The translations under genes and the position numbers were made by a program. The notes under the pieces were generated by a model that made no database searches, was not told the DNA's origin, and saw nothing but the letters and a program-made list of their open reading frames with translations. From a virus (Duplodnaviria > Heunggongvirae > Uroviricota > Caudoviricetes): a stretch of 9,898 bases of DNA. The DNA is taken from the IMG/VR virus record IMGVR_UViG_2698536628_000004; one strand, written 5' to 3'. This document shows, piece by piece, positions 5,025 through 9,553 of this stretch (positions are counted from its first letter, which is position 1; every line of letters starts with the position of its first letter).

Positions 5025-5416
5025 AACATACTGAACTCCGTGCAGCCGTACTGGATGCACTGGAGAAGCATGACACCGGGGCGACGCTTTTTGATGGTCG
5101 CCCCGCTGTTTTTGATGAGGCGGATTTTCCGGCAGTTGCCGTTTATCTCACCGGCGCTGAATACACGGGCGAAGAGCTGGACAGCGATACCTGGCAGGCG
5201 GAGCTGCATATTGAAGTTTTCCTGCCTGCTCAGGTGCCGGATTCAGAGCTGGATGCGTGGATGGAGTCCCGGATTTATCCGGTGATGAGCGATATCCCGG
5301 CACTGGCAGGACTGATTACCACGATGGTTACGCAGGGCTATGAGTATCGTCGTGATGACGATATGGCGTTATGGAGTTCTGCAGATCTGACTTATTCCAT
5401 TACATACGAGATGTGA
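5021..5416 (+). CDS. U: Tail terminator protein U
   Basis: ATG at 5021 overlaps the Z stop (ATGA), implying translational coupling. The 131-aa product [45 protein letters not shown]… matches lambda gpU as recalled. Confidence 0.85.
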
Positions 5417-5423
5417 GGACGAT

Positions 5424-6084
5424 ATGGCAACACCAAATCCCCTTGAGCCGGTAAAAGGTGCCGGTACCACTCTGTGGGTTTACAACGGTCAGGGTGATGC
5501 TTATGCAAACCCGTTGTCAGACGATGACTGGCAGCGACTGGCTAAGGTGAAGGATCTGACGCCGGGCGAGATGACGGCAGAACCCTACGATGATAACTAC
5601 CTGGATGATGAAGACGCGGACTGGACCGCGACCGGGCAGGGGCAGAAAAGCCTATAAAATCCGTTTCCCAAATGGCACGGTGGATGTGTTCCGTGGCTGG
5701 GTCAGCAGTATCGGTAAGGCCGTGACGGCGAAAGAAGTGATCACCCGCACGGTGAAAGTGACCAACGTGGGCAAACCTTCTGTAGCGGAAGAACGCAGCA
5801 AAATTACGCCGGTCACTGCGATTAAGGTGACGCCGACATCCGGTACGGTGGCAAAAGGGAAAACAACCACCCTGACGGTTTCTTTTGAGCCGGAAAGTGC
5901 AACCGACAAGACGTTCAGAGCGGTTTCCGCCGATCCGTCGAAAGCCACCATTAGTGTGAAAGATATGACAATTACGGTAAACGGCGTGGCGACAGGTAAG
6001 GTGCAGATCCCTGTGGTGAGCGGAAATGGTCAGTTCGCCGCAGTGGCTGAAGTCACCGTTACTGAAGCGGGCGCTGCAGGGTAA
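5424..6084 (+). pseudogene. V: Major tail tube protein V, disrupted by an internal frameshifting deletion: N-terminal fragment 5424-5657 (76 aa), remainder continues in the +1 frame from about 5650 to 6084 and includes the C-terminal Ig-like domain
   Basis: The ATG at 5424 gives [33 protein letters not shown]…[14 protein letters not shown], then a stop at 5655-5657. The +1 frame resumes at [37 protein letters not shown]… and runs to 6084. Relative to lambda gpV as I recall it (…[42 protein letters not shown]…), about 30 codons plus 2 nt are missing at the junction. The total length deficit versus lambda V is consistent with a roughly 92-nt deletion. Confidence 0.65.
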
Positions 6085-6097
6085 ACGGAGGTAATAC

Positions 6098-6520
6098 ATG
6101 TTTCTGAAAACAGAACAATTTGAATATAACGGTGTGTCCGTCACGCTTTCCGAATTGTCTGCGCTGCAGCGGTTTGATTATATAAAGTTTGTTTCAGACG
6201 CAGAACAACAGGAGACAACGAAGCATGATGTCGTGCACATTAACCAGCGATATCTGGAAACGGCATCCCTGCTTGTGGCGATGTCGCTATGGCATTCCCA
6301 TTCCCTCAAAGGCACTCTGGCCTCTCCGGAGACAGAGATGCAGCAGATCCGCCGTGAAGTGATGCTGGGATGGCCTGCTGATGCACTGAATCAGGCAACG
6401 AACCGGGTGCTTTATCTTTCAGGTATGCTGGATAACCGGCACGATGCCGATCCTGAACAAACCGGGAAAGCAGAAGCGACTGAGCCGGTAACATCAAAAA
6501 AGCATTCGAAGGCGAGCTGA
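6098..6520 (+). CDS. G: Tail assembly chaperone G
   Basis: ATG at 6098 preceded by GGAGG. The 140-aa product MFLKTEQFEYNGVSVTLSELSALQRF… resembles lambda gpG at the N-terminus and is divergent after that. Length is 423 nt, the same as lambda G. Confidence 0.8.
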   Translation: MFLKTEQFEYNGVSVTLSELSALQRFDYIKFVSDAEQQETTKHDVVHINQRYLETASLLVAMSLWHSHSLKGTLASPETEMQQIRREVMLGWPADALNQATNRVLYLSGMLDNRHDADPEQTGKAEATEPVTSKKHSKAS

Positions 6521-6960
6521 ACTTTGTCCTGAAACTGGCGCGAGAGATGGGGAGACCCGACTGGCGCGCCATGCTTGCCGGGATGACATCCACCGAATAT
6601 GCCGACTGGCGACGTTTTTACTGCACGCATTATTTTCAGGATACCCAACTGGACGCTCATTTTTCCGGGCTGATGTACGCCGTACTCAGCCTGTTTTTTG
6701 GCGATCCGGATATGCATCCGGCGGATTTCAGTCTGCTTGCTCCAGCGTGTGAGGAAGAGCAGACGGAGATGCCGGACGAGGAAGAAATGCTGATGCAGAA
6801 AGCGACAGGAGTTGCCGGAGGCGTCCGGTTCGGAGGGGACGGAGGGCGCGATATTTCACCTTCTGCGGATGTGGTGGATGTCAGCGAGGATGATGTTGCA
6901 TTAATGATGGCTTCAGCGGGGATTTCCGGAGGTGTGAGATATGTCCCAGCCAGCGGGTGA
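6484..6960 (+). CDS. T: Tail assembly chaperone T-frame segment, expressed only as a G-T fusion by -1 frameshifting from G; no independent start is expected
   Basis: The -1 frame relative to G is open from 6484 to TGA at 6958-6960. Its translation (…REMGRPDWRAMLAGMTSTEYADWRRFYCTHYF…GGVRY…) is homologous to the T portion of lambda gpGT as recalled. The ATG at 6547 in the ORF track is internal. Confidence 0.7.
   Translation, partial: AGNIKKAFEGELNFVLKLAREMGRPDWRAMLAGMTSTEYADWRRFYCTHYFQDTQLDAHFSGLMYAVLSLFFGDPDMHPADFSLLAPACEEEQTEMPDEEEMLMQKATGVAGGVRFGGDGGRDISPSADVVDVSEDDVALMMASAGISGGVRYVPASG
6496..6502 (+). promoter_or_regulatory. Candidate programmed -1 ribosomal frameshift slippery heptamer A_AAA_AAG for G-T fusion synthesis
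   Basis: In the G frame the codons are TCA AAA AAG (6494-6502), so the heptamer A AAA AAG is in X_XXY_YYZ register. The -1 frame is open from 6484 (after TGA at 6481-6483) through to 6960. It lies 16 nt before the G stop. Confidence 0.6.
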
Positions 6961-9553
6961 TCTGGTTATTGATTTGAGTCTGGATGCGGCCCGGTTTGAT
7001 GAACAGATGGCCCGGGTACACCGTCATTTTTCCAGTCTGGAGGCGGATGCCAGAAAAACCGCCAGTACTGTTGAACAGGGGCTGAGCCGACAGGCGCTGG
7101 CTGCACAAAAAGCCGGGATATCAGTCGGACAGTATAAGGCTGCCATGCGCACACTGCCCGCACAGTTCACGGATATTGTCACTCAGCTTGCCGGTGGTCA
7201 GAATCCCTTCCTTATCATGCTGCAGCAGGGGGGGCAGATCAGCGATTCATTCGGTGGACCGCTCAGCCTGCTTACCCTGCTGAAGGAGGAACTTCTCGGG
7301 ATCAGGGATGCCTCTGAATCATCAGAGGAGTCGCTGTCAGATACGGCAAATGCACTGGCTGAAAATGCCCGGAATGCCGGTGAGCTGGGACGATTTATGT
7401 CGGTGGCCCGTGTGGCGGCAGGTGGCGGGGTTGCCGTACTGGCCGCGCTTGCTGCCGCCGCCTGGCAGGCAGAGCAGGCTGACCGGGCCTTATTGCGTTC
7501 ACTGATCCTGACCGGAGGGGCGGCTGCCACCACAACGGCAGAATTGTGGAAAATGGCCGGGGTGATCAGCGATGAAGCCGGTGGTGGTATCAGACAGGCG
7601 GCAGAAAATCTGGCCCGTCTGGCAGAAAGCGGGAAATATACCGCCGGGCAGCTACGGATCATGGGGGAAACCTCTCAGAGATGGCTGCAGACGGTGGGGG
7701 ACGATGCCGGGAAGGTGGAAAAAGCCTTTGAAGGGATTGCAGCAGATCCGGTGAAGGCGCTGGCCTCCCTGAATCAGCAGTATAACTTCCTGAGCGTTTC
7801 CCAGTTACGCCATATTGATGAGCTTGAGCGCACGAAAGGTAAACAGGCTGCGGTGACGGAGGCGATGTCCCTGTTTGCGGATGTCATGAATGCACGTCTG
7901 GAGCAACTTGATAAAGCGGCCACGCCGGTGGAAAAAATCTGGGACGATGTTAAAACCTGGACTTCTGACGCATGGGCATGGATAGGTGATCATACACTGG
8001 GGGCACTCAGTCTGATCACTGACGTGGTGGCCGGAACCGTTGAACAAGTGAAGCTGCTGCTTGTGCAGGGGGATCTGGCGCTGGCTGAATTTATTCAGTC
8101 AGCCTGGGAAACGACAAAGAATGTGCCCGGCGTTGGTGCGTTGTTTGGTGAACTGGCAGAAGAGAACCGCGTATTTATTGAGAAAACAAAACGCGATGAA
8201 CTGGCGCTGAGAAAATCCATTGCGGAACGGGATGCGCGTATACGCCAGGGGGAAATGGGGTACATCAACCGCTCGCGTGCAACAGGCGTCAGCAAAGGTC
8301 CTGGGCAGCAGGAAGCCGTCAGCCGTCTGGCTGAAGAGCTGACAGGTAAAAAGCATACATCACCGAAAACGCGCTCTGCCGGGGAGAGGGAAGAGGAGCA
8401 GGCAAGAGAGGCTCTGCTTGCCCTTGAAGCTGAGCTCAGGACGCTGGAAAAACACAGCGGTGCGAATGAGAAAATCAGTCGGCAGCGCCGTGATTTATGG
8501 AAGGCGGAAAGTCAGTATGCGGTCCTGAAAGAGGCTGCCACGAAACGGCAGTTATCCTGGCAGGAAAAATCCCTGCTGGCCCATGAGAAAGAGACGCTGG
8601 AGTACAAACGCCAGCTGGCTGACCTGGGCGACAAGGTTGAACACCAGAAACGCCTGAATGAGCTGGCACAGCAGGCGGTGCGGTTTGAAGAGCAGCAGAG
8701 CGCGAAGCAGGCCGCCATCAGCGCAAAAGCCCGCGGTCTCACTGACCGTCAGGCGCAGCGGGAGTCTGAAGCGCAGCGTCTTCGGGACGTGTACGGTGAT
8801 AATCCGCAGGCGCTGGCCCGGGTCACTGGGGCACTGAAACAGACATGGGCGGATGAAGACATGCTGCGCGGTGACTGGCTGGCCGGGCTGAAGTCCGGCT
8901 GGGGGGAGTGGGCGGAAAGTGCGACGGACAGTTTTTCGCAGGTTAAAAGTGCTGCCACGCAGACCTTTGACGGTATTGCACAGAATATGGCGGCGATGCT
9001 GACCGGTGCAGAGGCAGACTGGCGGGGATTCACCCGTTCGGTGCTGTCCATGATGACAGAAATCCTGCTTAAACAGGCCATGGTGGGCATTGTCGGGCGT
9101 ATCGGCAGCGCCATTGGCGGTGCTTTCGGTGGTGGTGCATCTGCTTCCTCGGGGACGGCCATTGAGGCTGCGGCGGCGAACTTCCATTTCGCGACCGGAG
9201 GATTTACGGGGACGGGCGGCAAATATGAGCCTGCGGGGATAGTTCACCGCGGGGAGTTTGTTTTCACGAAAGAGGCAACCAGCCGGATAGGTGTGGGGAA
9301 TCTTTACCGTCTGATGCGCGGCTATGCGGAAGGTGGTTATGTGGGTGGTGCCGGAAGTCCGGCGCAGATGCGGCGGGCGGAAGGTATTAATTTTAATCAG
9401 AACAATCACGTGGTGATTCAGAACGACGGTATCAACGGACAGGCGGGGCCGCAGCTGATGAAGGCGGTGTATGACATGGCCCGCAAGGGGGCGCAGGATG
9501 AGCTCCGGCTGCAGTTGCGTGATGGCGGTATGTTATCAGGGAGCGGGCGATGA
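6941..9553 (+). CDS. H: Tail tape measure protein H
   Basis: ATG at 6941 preceded by GGAGGTG, overlapping the T end by 20 nt. The product is 870 aa. The N-terminus (MSQPAGDLVIDLSLDAARFDEQMARV…) and C-terminal third (…LRTLEKHSGANEKISRQRRDLWKAESQYAVL…GGFTGTGGKYEPAGIVHRGEFVFTKEATSRIGVGNLYRLMRGYA…) match lambda gpH as recalled; the central region is divergent. Confidence 0.9.
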   Translation: MSQPAGDLVIDLSLDAARFDEQMARVHRHFSSLEADARKTASTVEQGLSRQALAAQKAGISVGQYKAAMRTLPAQFTDIVTQLAGGQNPFLIMLQQGGQISDSFGGPLSLLTLLKEELLGIRDASESSEESLSDTANALAENARNAGELGRFMSVARVAAGGGVAVLAALAAAAWQAEQADRALLRSLILTGGAAATTTAELWKMAGVISDEAGGGIRQAAENLARLAESGKYTAGQLRIMGETSQRWLQTVGDDAGKVEKAFEGIAADPVKALASLNQQYNFLSVSQLRHIDELERTKGKQAAVTEAMSLFADVMNARLEQLDKAATPVEKIWDDVKTWTSDAWAWIGDHTLGALSLITDVVAGTVEQVKLLLVQGDLALAEFIQSAWETTKNVPGVGALFGELAEENRVFIEKTKRDELALRKSIAERDARIRQGEMGYINRSRATGVSKGPGQQEAVSRLAEELTGKKHTSPKTRSAGEREEEQAREALLALEAELRTLEKHSGANEKISRQRRDLWKAESQYAVLKEAATKRQLSWQEKSLLAHEKETLEYKRQLADLGDKVEHQKRLNELAQQAVRFEEQQSAKQAAISAKARGLTDRQAQRESEAQRLRDVYGDNPQALARVTGALKQTWADEDMLRGDWLAGLKSGWGEWAESATDSFSQVKSAATQTFDGIAQNMAAMLTGAEADWRGFTRSVLSMMTEILLKQAMVGIVGRIGSAIGGAFGGGASASSGTAIEAAAANFHFATGGFTGTGGKYEPAGIVHRGEFVFTKEATSRIGVGNLYRLMRGYAEGGYVGGAGSPAQMRRAEGINFNQNNHVVIQNDGINGQAGPQLMKAVYDMARKGAQDELRLQLRDGGMLSGSGR

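What the first reader, a model, noticed from the sequence alone, without database searches (positions are those of the whole stretch)
6464..6520. G-T tail chaperone frameshift appears to use A_AAA_AAG instead of lambda's G_GGA_AAG
The -1 frame relative to G is only open from 6484, and the one in-register slippery heptamer between there and the G stop at 6518-6520 is A AAA AAG at 6496-6502, the same heptamer used by E. coli dnaX. The predicted fusion is G(1-135)…VTSKK|AFEGELNFVLKLAREMGRPDWR…. A GGGAAAG heptamer, which is the lambda slip sequence, is present at 6464-6470 but in the wrong register (zero-frame GGG AAA G), and a -1 shift there would hit TGA at 6481 within a few codons. This suggests the recoding site was relocated or replaced while the G/T overlap architecture was preserved.
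Basis: partly seen in the sequence, partly recalled or inferred. Interest (0 to 1): 0.5.

Follow-up and report, generated by a model that had tools for sequence, protein, structure and literature searches.

The report
Known variant of lambda tail-chaperone frameshift site
This prophage makes its long tail-assembly chaperone G-T by a -1 ribosomal slip on A_AAA_AAG, at exactly the position where phage lambda uses G_GGA_AAG; this variant is functionally equivalent and was already published for the near-identical phage VT1-Sakai, so the finding is correct but ordinary.

Summary
G (6098-6520, Pfam TAC-G) overlaps a -1 frame that is open only from 6484 and encodes lambda T (to 6960). A_AAA_AAG at 6496-6502 is the only in-register X_XXY_YYZ heptamer in the whole of G. 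GGGAAAG at 6464-6470 is out of register and leads to TGA 6481.

The interpretation needs one correction: the site was replaced in situ, not relocated. Lambda's G_GGA_AAG and this A_AAA_AAG align column for column, and both end 15 nt before the G stop. Across 171 related loci (92 distinct junctions) the last four bases, A_AAG, are in register in 88 junctions. The first three bases vary: G_GAA_AAG is commonest (N15, phi80), followed by A_AAA_AAG, G_GGA_AAG, G_GTA_AAG and A_GAA_AAG.

Published E. coli measurements give the same efficiency for AAAAAAG and GGGAAAG. Xu, Hendrix and Duda 2004, as quoted by Lynch 2012, already list AAAAAAG as the slip site of VT1-Sakai, whose junction is identical to the window's. 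So this is already known, and interest is low.

Evidence for a downstream stimulatory RNA structure is weak. In this copy the neighbouring tail-tube gene V carries a 92-nt deletion, so the prophage is probably tail-defective.

The parts
6098..6520 (+). Gene G, tail assembly chaperone (140 aa), the zero-frame product
   Evidence: ORF. Pfam PF06894 Phage_TAC_2, E=6.5e-35. PGAP names the identical gene 'phage tail assembly chaperone G'. The exact protein is seen on 970 contigs.
6496..6502 (+). Slippery heptamer A_AAA_AAG: P-site AAA, A-site AAG, both read by tRNA-Lys
   Evidence: Only in-register XXXYYYZ heptamer in G. Aligns with lambda G_GGA_AAG and with N15/phi80 G_GAA_AAG, which those records annotate as slippery. 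The last four bases are invariant in 43 distinct sequences.
6502..6960 (+). T part of the G-T fusion: -1 frame read after base 6502 is re-read, stop at 6958-6960. The fusion is 287 aa.
   Evidence: The -1 frame is open 6484-6960. Pfam PF06223 Phage_tail_T, E=1.3e-11. T-frame codon periodicity of variation is already present in 6521-6546, upstream of the only ATG.
6481..6483 (+). TGA that closes the -1 frame upstream of the slip site
6464..6470 (+). Out-of-register GGGAAAG (zero frame GGG AAA G), a coincidental decoy
   Evidence: Register. Not conserved: GGGAAAA or GGTAAAG in 20 of 72 AAAAAAG-type relatives. Its count in the window fits chance.
6547..6549 (+). ATG that PGAP and GenBank use as the start of a separate 'T' gene; probably not a real start
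   Evidence: Annotation. This codon is TTC or TTT (Phe) in 29 of 43 distinct relatives. By reading the sequence, the only purine-rich stretch, GAGAG, abuts the ATG.
6511..6579 (+). Candidate downstream RNA structure: outer helix 6511-6517 with 6573-6579, inner hairpin 6536-6551 with 6556-6571. Its role is unproven.
   Evidence: The same fold is the MFE for 83 nt in window, lambda, N15 and phi80, z = -2.6 to -4.4. One GC<->AU exchange in the outer helix. Absent in the Kosakonia and Pantoea relatives tested. Overall pairing 82.9% against 80.8% in shuffles.
6941..9553 (+). Tape measure protein H (870 aa), the binding partner of G and G-T. Its start overlaps the end of T by 20 nt.
   Evidence: Pfam TMP_2 and Tape_meas_lam_C. 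ORF list.
5424..6084 (+). Major tail protein V, disrupted here by a 92-nt deletion (ORFs 5424-5657 and 5590-6084 in different frames). V is the target of the T domain.
   Evidence: Pfam PF16461 split across two ORFs. Alignment to the intact 753-nt gene.

Best explanation
This is the programmed -1 ribosomal frameshift site of a lambda-family tail assembly chaperone gene pair.

Most ribosomes translate G (6098-6520) and stop at TGA 6518. A small fraction slip back one base when the P site holds AAA (6497-6499) and the A site holds AAG (6500-6502). Both codons are read by E. coli's single tRNA-Lys (mnm5s2UUU), and both re-pair perfectly with AAA AAA (6496-6501). Translation then continues in the -1 frame from GCA (6502-6504) to 6957. 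The product is the 287-aa G-T fusion, whose T domain recruits the tail-tube protein V onto the G-coated tape measure H.

The heptamer occupies the same position as lambda's G_GGA_AAG. Only its P-site half has changed. The A-site A_AAG, the actual slip-prone element, is conserved across the family.

Shown here: the anatomy, the homology of position, the conservation of A_AAG, and coding in the T frame upstream of any start codon.

Inferred from published work on lambda and on these motifs in E. coli: that slippage occurs, at a rate of a few percent.
For: Anatomy and family membership:
- Searches give the ORFs, the frames and the Pfam hits.
- Gene order is Z-U-V-G-T-H, as in lambda.

Positional homology:
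- In lambda, PhiR12, VT1-Sakai and the window the heptamer ends 15 nt before the G stop.
- N15, phi80 and LLS records annotate the aligned GGAAAAG as the -1 slippery sequence.

Family census (171 loci, 92 distinct junctions):
- In-register A_AAG is present in 88 of 92 distinct junctions.
- The Lys it encodes (K135) is invariant in the G-T protein alignment.
- All nine reconstructed fusions read through to a conserved GG[VIL]RY C-terminal motif.

T is not separately initiated:
- Window ATG 6547 is Phe in 29 of 43 distinct relatives.
- Columns 6521-6546 already vary with T-frame codon periodicity: entropy 0.26, 0.36 and 0.99 by codon position.

Published efficiency (Sharma 2014, PMC4066793 supplement), -1 frameshifting in E. 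coli, AAAAAAG versus GGGAAAG:
- no stimulator: 0.291% versus 0.277%
- IS911 stimulators: 4.26% versus 3.80%
- IS3 pseudoknot: 39.0% versus 43.0%

Other published support:
- E. coli has one tRNA-Lys for AAA and AAG, and A_AAA_AAG is the dnaX site (PMC5009743).
- Lambda G-T frameshifting is about 4% and depends on tRNA-Lys U34 thiolation (PMC3296357).
- An unrelated HK97-type E. coli prophage chaperone cluster, whose representative ECs1801 has A_AAA_AAG, gave 6-7% frameshifting experimentally (PMC3711429).
- VT1-Sakai is listed as using AAAAAAG (PMC3483164 citing Xu 2004), and its junction is identical to the window's.
Against: - There is no direct protein or reporter evidence for this particular sequence. 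The fusion protein is absent from the 15-billion-protein collection, and public annotations list G and T separately.
- The motif alone gives only about 0.3% in reporters, so reaching lambda-like levels needs context effects that I could not establish. There is no SD-like element within 6-17 nt upstream (sequence), and the downstream structure is only weakly supported.
- In this copy V is disrupted, so the frameshift may have no current function here.
Confidence: 0.9

Rival explanations
1. G-T is made by transcriptional slippage. RNA polymerase adds one A in the A6 run (6496-6501), producing a subset of mRNAs in which G and T are in frame.
For: The site contains six consecutive A residues. Poly-A runs are known sites of programmed transcriptional realignment (PMC3711429). 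Such an event would give the same protein as a ribosomal slip.
Against: - The realignment cases cited use runs longer than 7 A; this run is 6.
- Homologous sites in lambda (GGGAAAG), N15/phi80 (GGAAAAG) and Pantoea (GGTAAAG) have only 3-4 A.
- The A_AAG is kept in reading-frame register in 88 of 92 distinct junctions. Register matters to ribosomes, not to RNA polymerase.
Confidence: 0.04
2. T is an independent gene translated from ATG 6547, as PGAP and GenBank annotate it, and no recoding occurs.
For: RefSeq annotates 'phage tail assembly protein T' from the equivalent ATG. VT1-Sakai and other records do the same.
Against: - The ATG is Phe (TTC/TTT) in 29 of 43 distinct relatives.
- The 26 nt between the G stop and this ATG show T-frame codon periodicity. 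The peptide AFEGELNFVLKLARE encoded upstream of it is conserved with lambda and N15.
- There is no spaced Shine-Dalgarno sequence.
- G-T is the product described for lambda (PMC5009743; PMC3296357).
Confidence: 0.03
3. The site is an intact but currently functionless relic. This prophage copy cannot build tails because V is broken, so the G-T slip has no current function here.
For: There is a 92-nt frameshifting deletion inside V relative to all near-identical records. No complete E. coli genome in the collection carries that junction in one piece.
Against: G, the heptamer, T and H match inducible Stx1a-converting phages at 99.7-99.8% identity, so the recoding signal itself is not degraded. 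This rival concerns present usefulness, not mechanism, and is compatible with the main explanation. The deletion could also be an assembly artefact.
Confidence: 0.5

Closest known systems
Bacteriophage lambda G / G-T programmed -1 frameshift (Levin, Hendrix and Casjens 1993; Xu, Hendrix and Duda 2004, 2013, 2014)
   Same: - Homologous G and T proteins: the same Pfam families, and 57% identity over the fusion.
- Same gene order, V-G-T-H.
- The slip site is in the same alignment columns, 15 nt before the G stop.
- Same A-site A_AAG and the same Lys at the junction.
   Different: The first three bases of the heptamer are AAA instead of GGG, so the P-site codon is AAA (Lys) rather than GGA (Gly). 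The junction dipeptide is therefore Lys-Lys instead of Gly-Lys, and both slipping tRNAs are tRNA-Lys.
Phage VT1-Sakai (Stx1 prophage Sp15 of E. coli O157:H7 Sakai) G-T site, listed as AAAAAAG by Xu et al. 2004
   Same: 96.4% nucleotide identity over most of 5400-7000. The sequence is identical from 28 nt upstream of the heptamer through the G stop and 29 nt beyond. It is the same heptamer, as stated in PMC3483164.
   Different: Nothing at the recoding site. VT1-Sakai lacks the upstream decoy (GGGAAAA instead of GGGAAAG) and has an intact V.
N15 / phi80 G-T site G_GAA_AAG
   Same: Homologous proteins, the same position, and the same A_AAG. It is annotated as the slippery sequence in GenBank.
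   Different: The P-site codon GAA does not re-pair perfectly in the -1 frame (non-canonical heptamer). This is the commonest form in the family: 52 of 92 distinct junctions have it as sole candidate.
E. coli dnaX A_AAA_AAG frameshift
   Same: Same heptamer and the same tRNA-Lys slippage (PMC5009743).
   Different: dnaX has an upstream SD-like stimulator and a strong downstream stem-loop, and reaches about 50%, giving a shorter product. Here no SD-like element is present, the expected rate is a few percent, and the product is longer. The proteins are unrelated.
HK97-type tail assembly chaperone of O157 prophage Sp9 (ECs1801; cluster A_AAA_AAG_25 of Sharma 2014)
   Same: Same heptamer and the same role, a chaperone gene upstream of the tape measure gene. 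Frameshifting was measured at 6-7% for that cluster.
   Different: A different chaperone family with no detectable similarity to the window's G (blastp E=1.2). Its heptamer abuts the stop codon.

Membership tests
Lambda-type G / G-T tail assembly chaperone with programmed -1 frameshift | The upstream ORF is a TAC-G family protein | tested here: met
   PF06894, E=6.5e-35, covering residues 1-123.
Lambda-type G / G-T tail assembly chaperone with programmed -1 frameshift | The downstream ORF in the -1 frame encodes a T domain and overlaps the 3' end of G | tested here: met
   PF06223, E=1.3e-11. The -1 frame is open from 6484 and overlaps G by 34 nt before its stop codon.
Lambda-type G / G-T tail assembly chaperone with programmed -1 frameshift | Located between the major tail protein gene and the tape measure gene | tested here: met
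   V remnants at 5424-6084, then G, T, and H at 6941-9553.
Lambda-type G / G-T tail assembly chaperone with programmed -1 frameshift | An in-register slippery sequence lies within the overlap, at the position homologous to the proven lambda site | tested here: met
   A_AAA_AAG at 6496-6502 aligns with lambda G_GGA_AAG, and both end 15 nt before the stop.
Lambda-type G / G-T tail assembly chaperone with programmed -1 frameshift | The G-T fusion protein is actually produced at a low ratio to G (about 1:30 in lambda) | not testable with these tools
   This needs a reporter assay or proteomics. The only support is indirect: published motif efficiencies and the lambda data.
dnaX-type stimulated A_AAA_AAG frameshift cassette | An upstream SD-like stimulator about 10 nt 5' of the heptamer | tested here: not met
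   The sequence 6479-6490 (ACTGAGCCGGTA) contains no GGAG, GAGG or AGGA. Sharma 2014 also scored no SD for either tail-chaperone cluster.
dnaX-type stimulated A_AAA_AAG frameshift cassette | A stable downstream stem-loop 5-9 nt 3' of the heptamer | tested here: inconclusive
   6503-6560 alone gives z=+1.46. The 83-nt fold has a helix starting 8 nt downstream, with z=-3.0. Covariation is minimal, and the structure is lost in distant relatives. No Rfam frameshift element matches.

The most novel reading that the evidence does not exclude
The roughly 70-nt Y-shaped structure immediately 3' of the heptamer may be a real frameshift stimulator. It has an outer helix (6511-6517 with 6573-6579) starting 8 nt downstream and an inner GC-rich hairpin (6536-6571). 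It would be shared by the lambda, Stx-phage, N15 and phi80 G-T genes. It could explain why native lambda G-T frameshifting (about 4%) is some tenfold above what the bare heptamer gives in reporters (about 0.3%). If so, the P-site half of the heptamer would be free to drift (GGG, AAA, GGA) because the A_AAG plus the structure set the rate.
Probability: 0.2. Interest if true: 0.35.

Novelty: already known. Interest (0 to 1): 0.1.

Why it matters
It matters little for discovery. It is useful mainly as an annotation correction. RefSeq/PGAP and most GenBank records for this very common STEC prophage family list G and a truncated 'T' starting at an internal ATG. The real second product is almost certainly a 287-aa G-T fusion joined at A_AAA_AAG, and that fusion is missing from the 15-billion-protein collection.

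The family census also gives a clear picture of how a recoding site evolves. The tRNA-Lys A_AAG core is fixed in place, while the P-site half changes between equally efficient or near-cognate forms.

Tried and rejected
- **Relocation of the site.** Rejected by nucleotide alignment and by the constant 15-nt distance to the G stop.
- **A role for the upstream GGGAAAG (6464-6470).** Rejected. It is out of register, the -1 frame is closed at 6481, the +1 frame is closed at 6489, and it is not conserved in close relatives.
- **Sharma 2014's cluster A_AAA_AAG_25 (ECs1801) as the same gene.** I first assumed it was. On checking, ECs1801 in Sakai prophage Sp9 belongs to an unrelated HK97-type chaperone family. 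It therefore supports only the general point that A_AAA_AAG serves chaperone frameshifts.
- **Xu et al. 2004 directly.** The paper is not held. I relied on the explicit quotation in PMC3483164.
- **Rfam scan of 6350-6750.** It returned only a chance snoRNA hit at E=0.81.
It folds no better than shuffled sequence, z=+1.46.
- **Downstream structure on 43 distinct sequences.** Pairing was barely above shuffles (82.9% against 80.8%), with essentially one informative exchange. I do not claim it.
- **Exact look-up of the fusion protein.** It is not in the collection.

Full report
**Observation**

The region was read directly and checked by script.

- G runs from ATG 6098 to TGA 6518-6520 (140 aa).
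- Relative to G, the -1 frame has stops at 6454 and 6481 and then stays open from 6484 to a stop at 6958-6960.
- The +1 frame is closed at 6489.
- AAAAAAG at 6496-6502 has the phasing A_AAA_AAG (zero-frame TCA AAA AAG). It is the only in-register X_XXY_YYZ heptamer anywhere in G.
- GGGAAAG at 6464-6470 is phased GGG AAA G, and a -1 shift there ends at TGA 6481 after six codons.

On the + strand AAAAAAG occurs only once in the 9.9-kb window. GGGAAAG occurs three times on both strands against 1.5 expected.

**What the genes are**

- Pfam assigns G to PF06894 (lambda tail assembly chaperone G, E=6.5e-35).
- The -1 frame product matches PF06223 (minor tail protein T).
- The next ORF (6941-9553) is a lambda-type tape measure protein.
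- The upstream ORFs are Z, U and V.

The window is 99.7-99.8% identical over 5400-7000 to Stx1a-converting phages. It is essentially identical (100.0% as reported) to prophages in many STEC genomes, apart from one 92-nt deletion. RefSeq annotates G and a separate 'T' that starts at the internal ATG corresponding to window 6547, with no slippage. VT1-Sakai and other GenBank records do likewise.

**Replaced, not relocated**

Reading lambda, VT1-Sakai and PhiR12 side by side, and then a 12-sequence alignment, shows that lambda's G_GGA_AAG and the window's A_AAA_AAG occupy the same columns.

- lambda: ...tct gcG GGA AAG tgt tcg acg gtg agc TGA
- window: ...aca tcA AAA AAG cat tcg aag gcg agc TGA

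In both, 15 nt separate the heptamer from the G stop. Only heptamer positions 1-3 differ. Among 79 IMG/VR relatives, every locus with an intact junction has either AAAAAAG or GGGAAAG at this distance.

The upstream GGGAAAG is a coincidence. At that position, 20 of the 72 AAAAAAG-type relatives have GGGAAAA or GGTAAAG, VT1-Sakai among them.

**Family census**

I added named phages and one genome per species from GTDB. For 171 loci (92 distinct junction sequences) I located the T frame, the point where it opens, the G stop, and any in-register NNNAAAG.

| Heptamer | Distinct junctions | Where found |
|---|---|---|
| G_GAA_AAG | 52 (sole candidate; one further junction also has an upstream GCAAAAG) | N15, phi80, mEp213, Fels-1, mEp460, most Enterobacterales |
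| A_AAA_AAG | 14 | Only IMG/VR contigs close to the window, Stx-converting phages and the window itself; none of the GTDB species representatives |
| G_GGA_AAG | 14 | Mostly lambda and close relatives; one junction is from Edwardsiella |
| G_GTA_AAG | 4 | Pantoea and one unclassified Enterobacterales MAG |
| A_GAA_AAG | 2 | Morganella |
| G_GGA_AAA or G_GCA_AAA next to TAG | 3 | Providencia, Ewingella, Kluyvera |

Two loci carry deletions or truncations.

- In a gap-free alignment of 43 distinct sequences, the last four heptamer bases (AAAG) are invariant, while the first three vary.
- The Lys they encode is invariant in the G-T protein alignment (K135).
- GenBank records for N15, phi80 and LLS annotate the aligned GGAAAAG as the -1 slippery sequence.

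So the conserved element is the A-site A_AAG at a fixed position, and the P-site half drifts. A_GAA_AAG is a plausible intermediate between G_GAA_AAG and A_AAA_AAG.

**T is reached only by frameshifting**

- The ATG used by annotators (6547) is TTC or TTT in 29 of 43 distinct relatives.
- The 26 nt between the G stop and that ATG already vary with T-frame codon periodicity. Column entropy is 0.26, 0.36 and 0.99 for codon positions 1, 2 and 3, the same pattern as downstream.
- The peptide encoded there (AFEGELNFVLKLARE) is conserved with lambda (VFDGELSFALKLARE) and N15 (ALASELKFAMKLARE).
- Reconstructed fusions from nine phages all read through to a conserved GG[VIL]RY C-terminal motif.

**Mechanism and expected efficiency (from the literature)**

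- E. coli has a single tRNA-Lys (mnm5s2UUU) for AAA and AAG. A_AAG is intrinsically shift-prone, and A_AAA_AAG is the dnaX site (PMC5009743).
- Sharma et al. 2014 measured all 64 heptamers in E. coli (PMC4066793 supplement). The two motifs are interchangeable:

| Context | AAAAAAG | GGGAAAG |
|---|---|---|
| No stimulator | 0.291% | 0.277% |
| IS911 stimulators | 4.26% | 3.80% |
| IS3 pseudoknot | 39.0% | 43.0% |

- Lambda G-T frameshifting is about 4% and rises when tRNA-Lys U34 thiolation is lost (PMC3296357).
- The roughly 30:1 ratio of G to G-T is important for tail assembly (PMC5009743).
- An unrelated HK97-type chaperone cluster from E. coli prophages, whose representative ECs1801 carries A_AAA_AAG, gave 6-7% experimentally (PMC3711429). 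That family is distinct from the window's G.

**Stimulators**

No SD-like sequence lies 6-17 nt upstream. Sharma et al. also scored none for either tail-chaperone cluster.

Longer stretches fold into a Y-shaped structure:

- an outer helix, 6511-6517 with 6573-6579, starting 8 nt after the heptamer;
- an inner hairpin, 6536-6551 with 6556-6571;
- z=-2.55 for 105 nt and z=-3.03 for 83 nt.

The same fold is the MFE in lambda (z=-2.6), N15 (-4.4) and phi80 (-3.7), but not in the Kosakonia (0.1) or Pantoea (-1.0) relatives tested.

On 43 distinct sequences only one outer-helix pair shows a clean GC<->AU exchange, which is effectively one event between two clades. Overall pairing is 82.9% against 80.8% in shuffles. 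The inner hairpin is built from two copies of a GC-rich, self-complementary motif that encodes conserved LAR and WRA residues, so protein constraint may explain it. I regard a stimulatory structure as possible but unproven. Rfam has no match.

**Prior knowledge**

Lynch et al. [quoted passage not shown] I could not read that paper directly. VT1-Sakai's junction is identical to the window's from 28 nt upstream of the heptamer to 29 nt beyond the G stop. The finding is therefore already published.

What is missing is annotation. The fusion protein is not in the protein collection, whereas G itself is seen on 970 contigs.

**Rivals**

- **Transcriptional slippage on the A6 run.** Unlikely. Homologous sites have only 3-4 A, and the A_AAG is kept in reading-frame register in 88 of 92 distinct junctions. 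The known realignment sites cited use runs longer than 7 A.
- **Independent initiation of T.** Contradicted by the points listed above under 'T is reached only by frameshifting'.
- **Functionless relic.** Likely for this particular copy, and compatible with the main explanation. V carries a 92-nt frameshifting deletion relative to all near-identical records, and no complete E. coli genome in the collection has that junction.

**Verdict**

It is already known for this phage group. Interest is low, at 0.1.

Noticed in passing
window 5424-6084 (junction near 5648): The major tail protein gene V is split into two out-of-frame ORFs (5424-5657 and 5590-6084) by a 92-nt deletion relative to the intact 753-nt gene in all near-identical STEC prophages. 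A few substitutions lie nearby. No complete E. coli genome in the collection has the deletion junction in one piece. The prophage copy is probably tail-defective, or the sequence carries an assembly error.
   Followed up: partly
loci L099-L113, L132, L135, L136 (GTDB representative assemblies): Short or low-coverage contigs in assemblies of unrelated taxa carry a G-T junction identical to phage lambda. The taxa include Neobacillus, Oceanobacillus, Kitasatospora, Shewanella, Leeuwenhoekiella, Enterococcus and Psychrobacter. This is almost certainly lambda DNA contamination of the sequencing libraries.
   Followed up: no
L049 (IMG/VR contig IMGVR_UViG_2869970738_000006): This close relative of the window has a 31-nt deletion that removes the AAAAAAG heptamer and the G stop (...GAGCCGGTAAC|TTGTCCTGA...). 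G ends early and cannot be joined to T by a -1 slip. It is probably a defective copy.
   Followed up: no
L080 1902-2003 (alignment A3): This locus combines lambda-type sequence upstream, including GGGAAAG, with window-type sequence immediately downstream of the heptamer. That suggests a mosaic recombination joint right at the slip site, between the G and T modules.
   Followed up: no
L092, L160-L164, L173 (Proteus, Providencia); L149, L151 (Morganella); L158, L163, L169: In these relatives the heptamer directly abuts the G stop (G_GAA_AAG TAG or A_GAA_AAG TAA). Three of them use G_GCA_AAA TAG or G_GGA_AAA TAG, that is A_AAA rather than A_AAG followed by a stop. The adjacent stop codon may itself favour slippage.
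   Followed up: no
window 6810-6957 (T C-terminus); alignment A2 columns 250-299: The T proteins of lambda and the window end with a duplicated motif (GGVRFG...40 aa...GGVRY). The N15, phi80 and Fels-1 types have a single GG[VI]RYGP motif and are about 35 aa shorter.
   Followed up: no
window 6941-6960: The tape measure gene H starts at ATG 6941, 20 nt before the T stop (6958-6960), so G-T and H overlap. This is consistent with tight translational coupling of the chaperone and its client.
   Followed up: no
L096 20002-20376 (E. coli Sakai prophage Sp9, ECs_1801/ECs_1802): A second, unrelated tail chaperone family in O157 prophages also uses A_AAA_AAG, there directly before TAG. RefSeq likewise annotates it as two separate genes.
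   Followed up: partly
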